Source of the DNA: a virus
Taxonomy: Duplodnaviria > Heunggongvirae > Uroviricota > Caudoviricetes
Virus record (IMG/VR): IMGVR_UViG_2974481312_000001
Coordinates: 1 to 41,868 of that record
Reading direction: 5' to 3' (one strand)
Length of the DNA: 41,868 nucleotides
In this document: positions 26,453 through 31,497 of the stretch, in pieces
Layout: each line of letters begins with the position of its first letter
Numbering within the stretch: position 1 is the first letter of the stretch
Translations under genes and position numbers: made by a program
Notes under the pieces: model-generated
What the model saw: the letters and a program-made list of their open reading frames with translations, nothing else
Told to the model about the DNA's origin: nothing
The model's database searches: none

Positions 26453-26512
26453 TATATAGCCTCCGTATAAATGAAAAGAGGGACCGAAGTCCCTCAAGAG
26501 TATACCCTACGA

Positions 26513-28351: not shown

Positions 28352-28615
28352 CTATTCCAGAATATTCCTTATATATTCCTGCAACCGGAATACTTTCAGA
28401 CGCAATTGCCGCGTGCACTCGGCGTTCTGTACGTCGACGGCCAGGTCTTCATCGGCATCACTACTTGGCAATGCCATTTTGCACGGCGGCTGCATTAGTG
28501 TCATATCCGGGGATGGAATTAGCATTCTCGGCGGCGCGTCGTTTGATTGACACCCGCTCAGGAGGGAACACGCAAACAACACGACCAGGACGGGTAACGT
28601 ATTTGATAACTTCAC
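28352..28615 (-). CDS. o-spanin (Rz1-like lipoprotein) overlapping the i-spanin gene
   Basis: Lipobox LLSGC after a hydrophobic signal peptide, Pro-rich mature region; +1 frame overlap with 28461..28847. Confidence 0.55.
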   Translation of the reverse strand: MKLSNTLPVLVVLFACSLLSGCQSNDAPPRMLIPSPDMTLMQPPCKMALPSSDADEDLAVDVQNAECTRQLRLKVFRLQEYIRNILE

Positions 28616-28847
28616 GGGTGATAGCCTCCGCGTTTTCTTTACCTTCGGTTTCGGCGGCGGCGGCCCTGGTATCGTTCTGCCGTTGCCGTTGTGTTTTCTT
28701 CGCTAGCTCGGCCTGTGCTTTCTGCTGTTGCTGTGAAACAAGATTGGCGCGGCCTTCTACCCACCCGCTTCTGTAGTTGTACTGGCCGTATAACCACAAG
28801 GAGAGGATACCGGCTGCCGTGACTACCGCGGTTACTTTCCAATTCAT
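28461..28847 (-). CDS. i-spanin (Rz-like)
   Basis: N-terminal transmembrane segment VTAVVTAAGILSLWLY followed by Gln/Ala-rich coiled-coil. Confidence 0.55.
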   Translation of the reverse strand: MNWKVTAVVTAAGILSLWLYGQYNYRSGWVEGRANLVSQQQQKAQAELAKKTQRQRQNDTRAAAAETEGKENAEAITREVIKYVTRPGRVVCVFPPERVSIKRRAAENANSIPGYDTNAAAVQNGIAK

Positions 28848-29130
28848 AGTATCCCCTTTCTTTATACGCTAAGCCCGGCTTACGCCGGGCGTTAAACTCG
28901 TATATCTGTAAACCTTATACGGCGAATCTTAGCTAAATACTGAAAGCAGTATAGCTCGGCCCTTCCGAATGCGTTCGCGGTTACGCTAGGGCGTTGTGAC
29001 GCCCGCTTCACGCGACCCGCACCGCGGTACGCTGAAAGCGTAGTTAGCGTAGCATTTAAAATAATAGAAATCTACTTTCTGAATAAAGTATTCCTTAATT
29101 TACATTAGCAAGGAATAATTGGAATAATTG

Positions 29131-29162
29131 AGGGCAAAATTAAGGCCCCTTGAAGGGGCCTT
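29131..29162 (-). terminator. Putative terminator inside the late operon
   Basis: Hairpin AAGGCCCC-TTGAA-GGGGCCTT after the Ig-like gene; weak U tract. Confidence 0.4.
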
Positions 29163-29165
29163 TCG

Positions 29166-29624
29166 TTACTTAGGTTCTGAGACCTTAGCTGCTTTGCTAA
29201 CCACCGACACACCGTCGGCATCTACGGCCTTGACGAAATATTCTCCGGGGTCTTTAACGGTTAGTTCTCCTTCAACGTAAGGAACGTTGATTACCTCTTT
29301 ACCATCTTTAAACCATTGCAAATCGTAGGGCGCTTTGCCACCTTTCACGACAACGGTTAATTTTGCAGAACCGTCTTTCAGTTGCACATCCGCTGGTTGC
29401 GCATCGAAGTACACATCACCGGCCCCATCCAGATAAGGTACTTCGTACAGGATGCCGTCCGAGATTGTGGTCAGTCCGGTCTTATCAGCAAACGGCATTT
29501 CATCTACCGATTCACCGAGAACAGATTCATCTTTAATATACACGACACCTTCACCCGCACCAGACACACGGGAGTACTGAACTACACGTCGTGAAGGCAC
29601 ATCTTTAACTTTGAAAAAGCCCAT
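29166..29624 (-). CDS. Ig-like domain protein
   Basis: APYDLQWFKDGKEV..GEYFVKAVDADGVS, an Ig I-set-like signature. Confidence 0.5.
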   Translation of the reverse strand: MGFFKVKDVPSRRVVQYSRVSGAGEGVVYIKDESVLGESVDEMPFADKTGLTTISDGILYEVPYLDGAGDVYFDAQPADVQLKDGSAKLTVVVKGGKAPYDLQWFKDGKEVINVPYVEGELTVKDPGEYFVKAVDADGVSVVSKAAKVSEPK

Positions 29625-30846: not shown

Positions 30847-31497
30847 ATGAATGTGCAGACTTTAGAATTTCCGTATGGCGAGGTGGAATTTACACGTGAT
30901 GAGTATATAGATGCCTCAACATTAACCATCCAGATGAACAGATGGAGGTTCGATAACGGACTCCAACCAAGAAATCTTGCGCAGATACTAAAAACCGATG
31001 ACTGCAAAAACTTTATGCGTGTGTGTGAGGAGGAGACAGGTATTGTTCCGTTAAAAACATCAAGAGGGAGGAACGGGAAGACGTGGTTGTGCCTGCACCT
31101 GGCCGTGTACATTGCAGAACAGTATAGTGCGTATTTTCACTTCCTGGTTATAGACCGATTTATTACGCAACGGCAGGTAGAGCTGCGTAACATTGGTGCG
31201 GTAAGCTTCGTGGAGCTTAATGCCGCCGTTAGTAGGATGATTGAACGTACAGAAGGGCGGATAGGCCATAGTGGACATTTCATACAGGTAGCGAAAGCAA
31301 TCAAGGAGTCTATAGATATTCGTGAAGTCACAGGTTTTGATACATGGGACTCCCAGGACGCAAAAACTAATCAATTGCGGAGCGAGATTCAAAAGTCTAT
31401 GGTGACGTTGTTGGATATGGAAGCAGTCAACTCGTGGGATGAGCTTAAAGAGACAATACCGCGTGTTGTTCGCAAATGCGCGGCAAATATATGTTAA
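30847..31497 (+). CDS. KilA-N domain-like protein
   Basis: Segment GKTWLCLHLAVYIAEQYSAYFHFLVIDRF resembles the KilA-N/APSES core; plus-strand gene inside the minus-strand head operon. Confidence 0.5.
   Translation: MNVQTLEFPYGEVEFTRDEYIDASTLTIQMNRWRFDNGLQPRNLAQILKTDDCKNFMRVCEEETGIVPLKTSRGRNGKTWLCLHLAVYIAEQYSAYFHFLVIDRFITQRQVELRNIGAVSFVELNAAVSRMIERTEGRIGHSGHFIQVAKAIKESIDIREVTGFDTWDSQDAKTNQLRSEIQKSMVTLLDMEAVNSWDELKETIPRVVRKCAANIC

What the first reader, a model, noticed from the sequence alone, without database searches (positions are those of the whole stretch)
28352..28847. Embedded Rz/Rz1-like spanin pair located about 8 kb away from the holin-endolysin cassette
An i-spanin-like ORF (N-terminal TM plus coiled-coil) contains, in the +1 frame and extending past its stop, an o-spanin-like lipoprotein ORF (lipobox LLSGC, Pro-rich). 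The pair lies between an Ig-like gene and the scaffold gene inside the head operon, not with the holin and endolysin at 36373..37457. Split lysis cassettes are known but uncommon, and the position implies late-operon timing for spanin expression.
Basis: partly seen in the sequence, partly recalled or inferred. Interest (0 to 1): 0.45.

Follow-up and report, generated by a model that had tools for sequence, protein, structure and literature searches.

The report
Known Jersey-type overlapped spanin gene pair
This is a real but already described pair of overlapping phage genes (an inner-membrane and an outer-membrane "spanin") that breaks the host's outer membrane at lysis; all relatives of this Salmonella phage keep it among the head genes rather than beside the holin and endolysin.

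Summary
The window is essentially the whole genome of Salmonella phage f2SE/f3SE (Jerseyvirus, Guernseyvirinae). On the minus strand, a 128-aa type-II membrane protein (28461..28847) overlaps by 155 nt, in the +1 frame, an 87-aa lipoprotein precursor (28352..28615, GTG start, lipobox LSGC). Each frame is under purifying selection. It is the only plausible lipoprotein gene in the genome, and nothing spanin-like lies beside the endolysin.

The pair belongs to the "Jersey" family, the largest overlapped family in Kongari et al. 2018, which reports the same 155-bp overlap and conserved o-spanin Cys45/Cys67. Close relatives (Shelanagig, SETP3, PVP-SE2) annotate it as i-/o-spanin. The position between the decoration and scaffold genes is shared by Jerseyvirus, Kagunavirus and Cornellvirus, and the pair also sits among the head genes in Dhillonvirus. 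Separation from the holin/endolysin is stated in print for phage Schulenberg. A homologous pair sits in a canonical lysis cassette in a lambdoid Klebsiella phage.

Two corrections apply: the architecture is "overlapped", not "embedded", and "late-operon timing" is untested. A terminator-like hairpin, a conserved promoter-like site and a conserved structured leader of about 190 nt precede the pair. That leader is the only possibly new item. Verdict: already known, low interest.

The parts
28461..28847 (-). i-spanin gene (128 aa): N-terminal transmembrane segment, long periplasmic helix, single Cys92
   Evidence: ORF. Hydropathy and Cys positions. phrog_2536 'Rz-like spanin' 5e-56. pN/pS 0.16 in its own frame. 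AF2 helix over residues 3-81. 89.6% identical to the phage Jersey i-spanin.
28352..28615 (-). o-spanin gene (87 aa precursor, GTG start): outer-membrane lipoprotein, mature part 66 aa with Cys45 and Cys67
   Evidence: ORF. Lipobox and composition. phrog_1267 at 6e-21 and phrog_5672 at 6e-32. pN/pS 0.07 in its own frame; GTG/ATG alternate at the same start codon. Only plausible lipoprotein ORF in six frames.
28461..28615 (-). 155-nt dual-coding overlap: the i-spanin C-terminal tail and, in the +1 frame, the o-spanin signal peptide and N-terminal linker
   Evidence: pN/pS about 0.5 in both frames; highest nucleotide diversity, 0.119. Same 155-bp overlap as reported for phage Jersey (PMC6139136).
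28785..28835 (-). codons 5-21 of the i-spanin: predicted transmembrane segment VTAVVTAAGILSLWLYG
   Evidence: Kyte-Doolittle maximum. Inside the high-confidence helix of the AF2 model.
28550..28615 (-). o-spanin signal peptide with lipobox L-S-G-C (Cys22 = codon at 28550..28552), followed by Gln-Ser
   Evidence: Conserved in relatives as LSGC, LNGC, ITGC, MSAC or ASC.
28852..28857 (-). Shine-Dalgarno AGGGGA of the i-spanin
   Evidence: Largely invariant in 39 relatives, some Kagunavirus having GGAGA.
28625..28629 (-). Shine-Dalgarno GGAGG of the o-spanin, inside the i-spanin gene
   Evidence: A ribosome-binding site is annotated at the same place in Shelanagig.
28873..28890 (-). conserved hairpin GCCCGGC-GTAA-GCCGGGC immediately 5' of the i-spanin ribosome-binding site. 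It looks more terminator-like in Kagunavirus, where a TTTACTTAT tail follows it.
   Evidence: One pair occurs as C-G, G-C and U-A, and a second as G-C and A-U.
28848..29040 (-). conserved structured non-coding leader upstream of the spanin pair. It contains the 39-aa ORF 28892..29011 that some records annotate as a gene.
   Evidence: Conservation. Fold z-score -4.8 for the whole 28848..29165 spacer and -2.5 for 28848..29040. Covariation 0.21 against at most 0.056 in slid controls, 99.2% of cells paired. No Rfam family.
29046..29074 (-). promoter-like site TAGATT-17 nt-TACGCT, with the TG of an extended -10 element at the end of the spacer
   Evidence: Found as the best-scoring site in all 33 distinct Jerseyvirus/Kagunavirus upstream sequences, always with 17-nt spacing although the spacer sequence differs. 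Only one match in the window. Function not shown.
29135..29163 (-). terminator-like hairpin AAGGCCCC-loop-GGGGCCTT followed by AATTTTG, directly after the decoration gene stop
   Evidence: Sequence. Stem invariant and loop variable in relatives. Terminators are annotated at the equivalent site in Schulenburg.
36373..36861 (-). endolysin (Phage_lysozyme), the unlinked partner of the spanins
   Evidence: PF00959 at 2.9e-30. PHROG endolysin families.
36842..37129 (-). class I holin
   Evidence: phrog_2508 holin at 9e-38. The Shelanagig homologue is annotated 'holin class I', with 3 TMDs.
37131..37457 (-). ORF in a PHROG family labelled 'holin' (function contested; true start probably further downstream)
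   Evidence: phrog_2359 at 1e-37. A terminator-like hairpin at 37421-37452 lies inside its 5' end. The Shelanagig homologue is shorter and annotated hypothetical. The S10 study found no TMD (PMC9677904).

Best explanation
The two overlapping genes encode a two-component spanin of the 'Jersey' family.

Shown by sequence: the i-spanin has an N-terminal transmembrane segment and a long helix. The o-spanin is made from an internal GTG in the +1 frame and carries a signal peptide with a lipobox, with Gln-Ser after the lipidated Cys.

Inferred from the lambda Rz/Rz1 paradigm:
- The i-spanin is anchored in the inner membrane with its helical domain in the periplasm.
- The o-spanin is lipidated at Cys22 and sorted to the inner leaflet of the outer membrane.
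- The two C-termini bind, and homotypic disulfides form (i-spanin Cys92; o-spanin Cys45/Cys67).
- The complexes span the periplasm and accumulate harmlessly because the peptidoglycan mesh holds them apart.
- When the unlinked holin(s) (36842..37457) release the endolysin (36373..36861) and the wall is degraded, the complexes oligomerise and fuse the inner and outer membranes. This removes the last barrier to virion release.

Because activity is gated by endolysin action, the genes need not sit in the lysis cassette. In this phage lineage they lie between the capsid decoration and scaffold genes. There they are probably co-transcribed with the scaffold and major capsid genes, in a terminator-bounded unit on the same strand as the lysis cassette.
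For: - Exact ORFs, frame, overlap, TMD, lipobox, Cys and Pro content.
- Strong PHROG 'Rz-like spanin' matches for both proteins.
- Purifying selection in each frame, with a GTG/ATG start codon alternating at the same position.
- Only plausible lipoprotein ORF in the 41.9-kb genome, and no spanin candidate by the endolysin.
- Identical gene pair annotated i-/o-spanin in Shelanagig, SETP3 and PVP-SE2.
- i-spanin 89.6% and o-spanin 86% identical to those of phage Jersey, the type member of Kongari's Jersey family, with the same 155-bp overlap and conserved Cys45/Cys67.
- Both proteins are homologous (38% and 51% identity; 3e-23 and 2e-17) to an overlapped pair directly after the holin and SAR-type lysozyme, downstream of a Q antiterminator gene, in Klebsiella phage 2 LV-2017.
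- Long N-terminal helix in the AF2 model.
- Same head-module position in Kagunavirus, Cornellvirus and Dhillonvirus.
Against: - No experiment on any Jersey-family spanin was found in the searchable literature, so function rests on features and homology.
- Neither protein matches the Pfam Rz or Rz1 families.
- TMD and lipoprotein calls come from hydropathy and pattern rules, not SignalP/LipoP/TMHMM.
- The coiled-coil character and the i/o C-terminal interaction were not tested, and the AF2 model is low-confidence beyond residue 80.
- Transcription of the pair is inferred only from motifs.
Confidence: 0.9

Rival explanations
1. The lipoprotein and its membrane partner serve another envelope function, for example superinfection exclusion or receptor masking (as with the T5 Llp or Cor lipoproteins), and are not lysis proteins. 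That would explain why they are not in the lysis cassette.
For: The pair lies among structural genes, 7.5 kb from the holin/endolysin. No functional test exists. Pfam gives no Rz/Rz1 hit.
Against: - Both proteins are homologous to a pair located directly after the lysozyme in a canonical Q-holin-lysozyme cassette.
- Both components and the periplasmic Cys residues are conserved together, as in spanins.
- The genome has no other candidate to disrupt the outer membrane.
- A separate Imm-like superinfection immunity gene is annotated in the close relative Shelanagig.
Confidence: 0.05
2. Outer-membrane disruption is done by something else near the endolysin (a unimolecular spanin, a disruptin-type peptide or a membrane-active endolysin tail). 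The 28352..28847 pair is then redundant or vestigial.
For: Several small uncharacterised ORFs follow the endolysin, and one overlaps its 3' end (annotated hypothetical in Shelanagig). A Jerseyvirus study claims external lytic activity for cassette proteins (PMC9677904).
Against: - No ORF near the endolysin has a lipoprotein signal or an N-terminal TMD paired with a lipoprotein.
- The pair is under strong purifying selection and is retained in every relative examined, which argues against a vestige.
Confidence: 0.03
3. The +1-frame ORF is a chance open frame inside and after a real membrane-protein gene, and is not a gene.
For: Gene callers skipped or truncated it. The f2SE record annotates only a 47-aa fragment, and several relatives annotate nothing.
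Against: - pN/pS is 0.07 in that frame against about 2 in the other frames.
- The start codon, Shine-Dalgarno sequence, lipobox and Cys45/Cys67 are conserved from Jerseyvirus to Dhillonvirus and a Klebsiella phage.
- It is the only lipoprotein-signal ORF in the genome.
Confidence: 0.02

Closest known systems
Jersey i-spanin/o-spanin family (Kongari et al. 2018, BMC Bioinformatics 19:326; members include Jersey, SETP3, SE2, K1G, HK578, SO-1)
   Same: The i-spanin is 89.6% and the o-spanin 86% identical to those of phage Jersey. The architecture is the same: overlapped, 155 bp shared, +1 frame. The o-spanin Cys45/Cys67 are the same, as is the genomic position between the decoration and scaffold genes.
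   Different: Nothing substantive. The lipobox here is the canonical LSGC, whereas many family members, including Jersey and SETP3, have LNGC. The f2SE/f3SE GenBank records label the genes 'hypothetical' and truncate the o-spanin to 47 aa.
Phage lambda Rz/Rz1 (prototype two-component spanin)
   Same: A type-II inner-membrane protein plus a small Pro-rich outer-membrane lipoprotein encoded in the +1 frame of the same DNA. Both have periplasmic Cys residues. The presumed mechanism, membrane fusion after wall degradation, is the same.
   Different: - No detectable sequence homology: no hit to the Pfam Rz or Rz1 families.
- Rz1 is fully embedded in Rz, whereas this pair is overlapped.
- The lambda genes are the last genes of the S-R-Rz/Rz1 cassette, whereas these are 7.5 kb from the endolysin, among the head genes.
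- The o-spanin here is larger, with a C-terminal segment that Kongari predicts to be helical.
Phage T4 PseT.3/PseT.2 spanins
   Same: A two-component spanin encoded away from the holin (t) and endolysin (e). This is the textbook precedent for unlinked lysis genes (PMC6139136).
   Different: The T4 genes are 'separated' rather than overlapped and belong to an unrelated sequence family. In T4 none of the lysis genes are clustered, whereas here the holin and endolysin remain a cassette and only the spanins are elsewhere.
Spanin pair of lambdoid Klebsiella phage 2 LV-2017 (KY271396)
   Same: Homologous i-spanin (38% identity) and o-spanin (51% over the mature part), also overlapped.
   Different: That pair lies directly after the holin and SAR-type lysozyme, downstream of the Q antiterminator gene, which is the canonical cassette position.

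Membership tests
Two-component spanin (functional class; Summer 2007, Kongari 2018) | i-spanin: small type-II inner-membrane protein with one N-terminal TMD and a mainly helical periplasmic domain | tested here: met
   Hydrophobic segment at residues 5-21. AF2 helix over residues 3-81, pLDDT about 84-94 to residue 60. Dedicated TMD and coiled-coil predictors were not available.
Two-component spanin (functional class; Summer 2007, Kongari 2018) | o-spanin: outer-membrane lipoprotein signal (signal peptidase II lipobox, no Asp at +2) | tested here: met
   K2, hydrophobic core, L-S-G-C22, then Gln-Ser. Unique in the six-frame scan. This was a rule-based test, not LipoP/SignalP.
Two-component spanin (functional class; Summer 2007, Kongari 2018) | o-spanin gene embedded in, overlapping or immediately following the i-spanin gene | tested here: met
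   +1 frame with a 155-nt overlap, that is, the 'overlapped' class.
Two-component spanin (functional class; Summer 2007, Kongari 2018) | At least one periplasmic Cys available for homotypic intermolecular disulfide bonds | tested here: met
   i-spanin Cys92 and o-spanin Cys45/Cys67, conserved in relatives. Bond formation itself was not tested.
Two-component spanin (functional class; Summer 2007, Kongari 2018) | i-spanin and o-spanin C-termini form a complex, and the genes are required for outer-membrane disruption (they complement lambda Rz/Rz1) | not testable with these tools
   Needs genetics or biochemistry. No published test for this family was found.
Jersey spanin family (Kongari 2018 sequence clusters) | Sequence similarity to phage Jersey i- and o-spanins above the clustering threshold (BLASTCLUST settings 40 and 0.4) | tested here: met
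   89.6% identity over 125 aa for the i-spanin and 86.2% over 87 aa for the o-spanin (L012 = phage Jersey genome).
Lambda Rz (Pfam Phage_lysis) / Rz1 (Pfam Rz1 lipoprotein) homologous families | Significant match to the Pfam family profiles | tested here: not met
   Pfam scan at E up to 0.1 returned only weak unrelated hits for both proteins. They are functional analogues, not detectable homologues.
Canonical lysis cassette (holin-endolysin-spanin contiguous) | Spanin genes adjacent to the endolysin gene | tested here: not met
   The endolysin ends at 36373 and the i-spanin starts at 28847. Terminase, portal and head genes lie between them.

The most novel reading that the evidence does not exclude
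In Jerseyvirus and Kagunavirus, the spanin genes are the first genes of a separately controlled spanin-scaffold-major capsid transcription unit. That unit would be driven by a conserved extended -10 promoter and governed by a previously undescribed structured leader RNA of about 190 nt. The leader ends in a conserved hairpin directly before the spanin ribosome-binding site and could act as an attenuator, an antitermination target or a processing/stability element. Spanin dose would then be coupled to capsid production rather than to the holin/endolysin.
Probability: 0.2. Interest if true: 0.4.

Novelty: already known. Interest (0 to 1): 0.1.

Why it matters
There is little new biology. The pair, its overlapped architecture, its family and its separation from the holin/endolysin are all documented for this phage group.

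The practical value is curatorial. The f2SE/f3SE records call the i-spanin 'hypothetical' and truncate the o-spanin at an internal Met. The same truncation is frozen into the 47-position PHROG profile phrog_5672. Jerseyviruses are widely proposed as Salmonella biocontrol agents, so a correct lysis-gene inventory has some use.

The family also shows that spanins can be moved out of the lysis cassette without loss. The same family occupies the canonical position in a lambdoid Klebsiella phage. This fits the model in which spanin activity is gated by peptidoglycan degradation rather than by gene linkage.

The conserved leader upstream is the only element that might repay further work.

Tried and rejected
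- Pfam scan of both proteins gave no Rz/Rz1 family, only sub-threshold noise.
- Rfam found nothing at gathering threshold on the whole window. A permissive scan of 28780..29220 gave only chance-level hits, with E at least 0.6 and scores far below gathering.
- ARAGORN found no tRNA in the window. The 'tRNA-Ser' annotated in phage ER21 maps to about 29116..29194 on the opposite strand, over the terminator hairpin and the end of the decoration gene. I regard it as a false call.
- The standard sigma-70 scan and my own 8-of-12 scan found no promoter on the minus strand upstream of the pair. The promoter-like site was seen only by conservation and allowing an extended -10.
- My first, strict lipobox filter missed relatives with LNGC, so I re-extracted the frames by tblastn and re-scanned the window with a relaxed rule.
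- The single-sequence AF2 model of the i-spanin is uninformative beyond residue 80.
- Literature searches for transcriptomics of Guernseyvirinae and for experiments on Jersey-family spanins found nothing relevant. The Shelanagig announcement does not mention lysis genes.
- Considered and rejected: chance ORF, exclusion lipoprotein, and a hidden u-spanin or disruptin beside the endolysin (see rivals).

Full report
**Identity of the window.** The 3.2 kb around the finding is 100% identical to Salmonella phages f2SE and f3SE. These are classified as Jerseyvirus f18SE in the subfamily Guernseyvirinae and have record lengths of 41,865 and 41,867 bp. The 41,868-base window is therefore essentially a whole phage genome. 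In all, 462 phage records match this stretch, mostly Salmonella and Escherichia siphophages.

- The i-spanin candidate (28461..28847) is 128 aa. It starts at an ATG preceded by AGGGGA. It has a hydrophobic N-terminal segment (residues about 5-21) and one cysteine, Cys92.
- The o-spanin candidate (28352..28615) is 87 aa. It starts at a GTG preceded by GGAGG, lies in the +1 frame, shares 155 nt with the i-spanin gene, and extends 109 nt beyond its stop.
- The o-spanin N-terminus, MKLSNTLPVLVVLFACSLLSG|C, has the parts of a signal peptidase II substrate: a basic residue, a hydrophobic core and lipobox L-S-G-C22. Gln-Ser follow the Cys, so there is no Asp inner-membrane retention signal.
- The 66-aa mature part has 7 prolines and Cys45/Cys67.
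- A single-sequence AlphaFold2 model of the i-spanin gives a confident continuous helix over residues 3-81 and an unreliable C-terminal third.

**Is it more than chance?** I compared 13 distinct Jerseyvirus versions of the 496-nt region.

| Region | Own frame pN/pS | Other frames pN/pS |
|---|---|---|
| i-spanin-only part | 0.16 | 1.8-2.2 |
| o-spanin-only part | 0.07 | 1.8-2.1 |
| 155-nt overlap | 0.50 (i frame), 0.45 (o frame) | 0.98 (third frame) |

The o-spanin start codon is GTG or ATG at the same position in every genome. A six-frame scan for lipoprotein signals finds this ORF and no other. A deliberately relaxed scan adds only short ORFs, most of them antisense to long genes, with mature parts of a few residues. 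Both genes are real.

**What it is.**

- Both proteins hit PHROG families labelled 'Rz-like spanin': phrog_2536 at 5e-56 for the i-spanin, and phrog_1267 at 6e-21 and phrog_5672 at 6e-32 for the o-spanin.
- Neither matches the Pfam families built on lambda Rz or Rz1. The relationship to lambda is by analogy, not by detectable homology.
- Close relatives annotate the identical pair as i-spanin/o-spanin: Shelanagig (Center for Phage Technology annotation), PVP-SE2 and the RefSeq SETP3 record.
- Kongari et al. 2018 (PMC6139136) define the 'Jersey' family as the largest overlapped two-component spanin family, with 27 members including Jersey, SETP3, SE2, K1G and HK578.
- That paper reports a 155-bp overlap in Jersey and invariant o-spanin Cys45 and Cys67. 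It predicts i-spanins with two helices joined by a beta-containing linker and a variable C-terminal tail.
- The window's proteins are 89.6% (i-spanin) and 86% (o-spanin) identical to those of phage Jersey, with the same overlap and cysteines. This is plain family membership.

**Position.**

- On the minus strand the gene order is: phrog_2359 ORF, class I holin, endolysin, small ORFs, small and large terminase, portal. A gene on the opposite strand follows.
- The order then continues: head morphogenesis protein, Hoc-like decoration protein, i-/o-spanin, scaffold, major capsid protein, connector and tail genes.
- The spanins are thus 7.5 kb from the endolysin on the same strand.
- Nothing after the endolysin has a lipoprotein signal or an i-spanin-like layout.
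- The position is not a quirk of this phage. The pair sits between the decoration gene and the scaffold gene in other Jerseyviruses, in Kagunavirus (Schulenburg, ZCEC5, fPoEco01, Bas75, VIPECOMC04) and in Cornellvirus VSiP.
- In Dhillonvirus Oekolampad it sits directly after the SPP1 gp7-like minor capsid gene.
- T4 is the classical precedent for unlinked spanins (PMC6139136).
- In the lambdoid Klebsiella phage 2 LV-2017, homologues of both proteins (38% and 51% identity; 3e-23 and 2e-17) form an overlapped pair directly after a holin and a SAR-type lysozyme, downstream of a Q antiterminator gene.
- The same spanin family therefore occurs both in the canonical cassette position and in the head module. 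This supports the lysis role and shows that only the location differs.

**How it most likely works.** This rests on established knowledge of lambda Rz/Rz1 as summarised in PMC6139136; the steps are inferred here, not shown.

- The i-spanin is anchored in the inner membrane, and the lipidated o-spanin in the outer membrane.
- Their C-termini associate and homotypic disulfides form.
- The complexes, threaded through the peptidoglycan, stay inert until holin-released endolysin removes the wall.
- They then oligomerise and fuse the two membranes.

Because the trigger is wall degradation, co-location with the holin and endolysin is not required. That is consistent with the stable unlinked arrangement across several genera. 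I found no experiment on any Jersey-family spanin, so I put 0.9 rather than certainty on this.

- Directly after the decoration gene stop there is a terminator-like hairpin (AAGGCCCC/GGGGCCTT followed by AATTTTG, 29135..29163). Its stem is invariant and its loop variable among relatives. Terminators are annotated at the same place in Schulenburg.
- Several relatives carry opposite-strand inserted genes just after it.
- Downstream lies a promoter-like site, TAGATT-17 nt-TACGCT with TG at the end of the spacer (29046..29074). The standard consensus scans missed it.
- That site is the best-scoring site in all 33 distinct Jerseyvirus and Kagunavirus upstream sequences. It always has 17-nt spacing and the extended -10 TG, although the spacer sequence differs between genera. 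Kagunaviruses and phage Jersey have TTGACT as the first hexamer.
- The roughly 190 nt between this site and the i-spanin ATG are more conserved than the wobble positions of the flanking genes.
- The whole 318-nt spacer folds better than shuffled sequence, with z = -4.8.
- On 39 distinct sequences the consensus structure has 99.2% of cells paired, against 28-50% in slid controls. Seven pairs have changes on both sides, against 0-3. The covariation score is 0.21, against at most 0.056.
- Most of that covariation reflects the Jerseyvirus/Kagunavirus split, so it represents few independent events.
- The last hairpin (28873..28890) sits immediately before the spanin Shine-Dalgarno sequence and shows three pair types at one position.
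- No Rfam family matches.
- A terminator follows the major capsid gene (26478..26495; annotated in Shelanagig).

The simplest reading is that the spanin, scaffold and capsid genes form one terminator-bounded unit. Whether it is fed by its own promoter, by read-through or by both cannot be decided here. The holin-endolysin block is likewise flanked by terminator-like hairpins on the same strand (annotated in Shelanagig).

**Comparison and novelty.** The pair is a member of a described family, with a described architecture, in a described position. Its separation from the lysis cassette is in print for a sister genus. The only gap is annotation. The f2SE record calls the i-spanin hypothetical and starts the o-spanin at internal Met41, giving 47 aa. 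phrog_5672 is a 47-position profile matching residues 41-87 only, so the truncation has propagated. This is the kind of error Kongari et al. counted: 64 o-spanins with a wrong start and 196 not annotated.

**Verdict.** The finding is already known and of low interest. The conserved leader upstream of the pair is the one item that may be undescribed. I followed it up only partly.

Noticed in passing
window 28848..29165 (minus strand): The spacer between the decoration gene and the i-spanin is highly conserved. It holds a terminator-like hairpin (29135..29163), a conserved extended -10 promoter-like site (29046..29074) and a structured leader of about 190 nt with covarying hairpins, the last of them (28873..28890) directly before the spanin ribosome-binding site. 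No Rfam family matches. It is shared by Jerseyvirus and Kagunavirus (39 distinct sequences).
   Followed up: partly
window 28892..29011 (minus strand): A 39-aa GTG-start ORF is annotated 'hypothetical protein' in f2SE and Shelanagig, with a similar small ORF in Schulenburg and Bas75. It lies entirely inside the structured leader, and substitutions within it are compensatory for RNA hairpins. It may not be a protein-coding gene. Its coding potential was not tested formally.
   Followed up: partly
L022 (Escherichia phage vB_VIPECOMC04) 1501..2565: [quoted passage not shown] Kongari et al. described the same kind of event for T5 versus Shivani.
   Followed up: no
L004 1604..2125; L007 719..1992; L019-L023 (region between the decoration gene and the spanin leader): The site just after the decoration-gene terminator is a hot spot for different opposite-strand inserted genes. 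Examples are a sliding-clamp-like/POL3Bc ORF (labelled RusA-like in one record) and small hypotheticals. This window has no insert there.
   Followed up: no
L002, L009-L013, L015-L017 (o-spanin frame) versus window 28550..28561: Many Jerseyviruses, including Jersey and SETP3, have LLNGC (Asn at -2) where this phage has the canonical LLSGC lipobox. The position is unusually tolerant, and a strict lipobox filter misses it.
   Followed up: no
A strong terminator-like hairpin (13-bp stem plus T-run, 37421..37452) lies inside the 5' end of the 108-aa ORF. Shelanagig annotates a shorter hypothetical protein. A study of Jerseyvirus S10 found no TMD and claimed lysin-like activity (PMC9677904).
   Followed up: no
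window 30847..31497 (plus strand): A 216-aa gene sits on the opposite strand between the portal and head-morphogenesis genes. It belongs to a PHROG family labelled 'amidase' (phrog_6095, 2e-128), but its only Pfam signal is a sub-threshold KilA-N match. The 'amidase' label traces to the SETP3 annotation and looks unsupported.
   Followed up: no
L003 (f2SE record KU951146) 2353..2496; PHROG phrog_5672: The o-spanin is annotated from an internal Met as a 47-aa hypothetical protein. phrog_5672 is a 47-position profile covering only residues 41-87, so the truncated gene model has propagated into the family library.
   Followed up: yes
L018 (phage ER21) 1817..1895, equivalent to window ~29116..29194 (plus strand): A 'tRNA-Ser' is annotated there, over the terminator hairpin and the end of the decoration gene, which is itself left unannotated in that record. 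ARAGORN finds no tRNA in the window. It is probably a false call that displaced a real CDS.
   Followed up: partly
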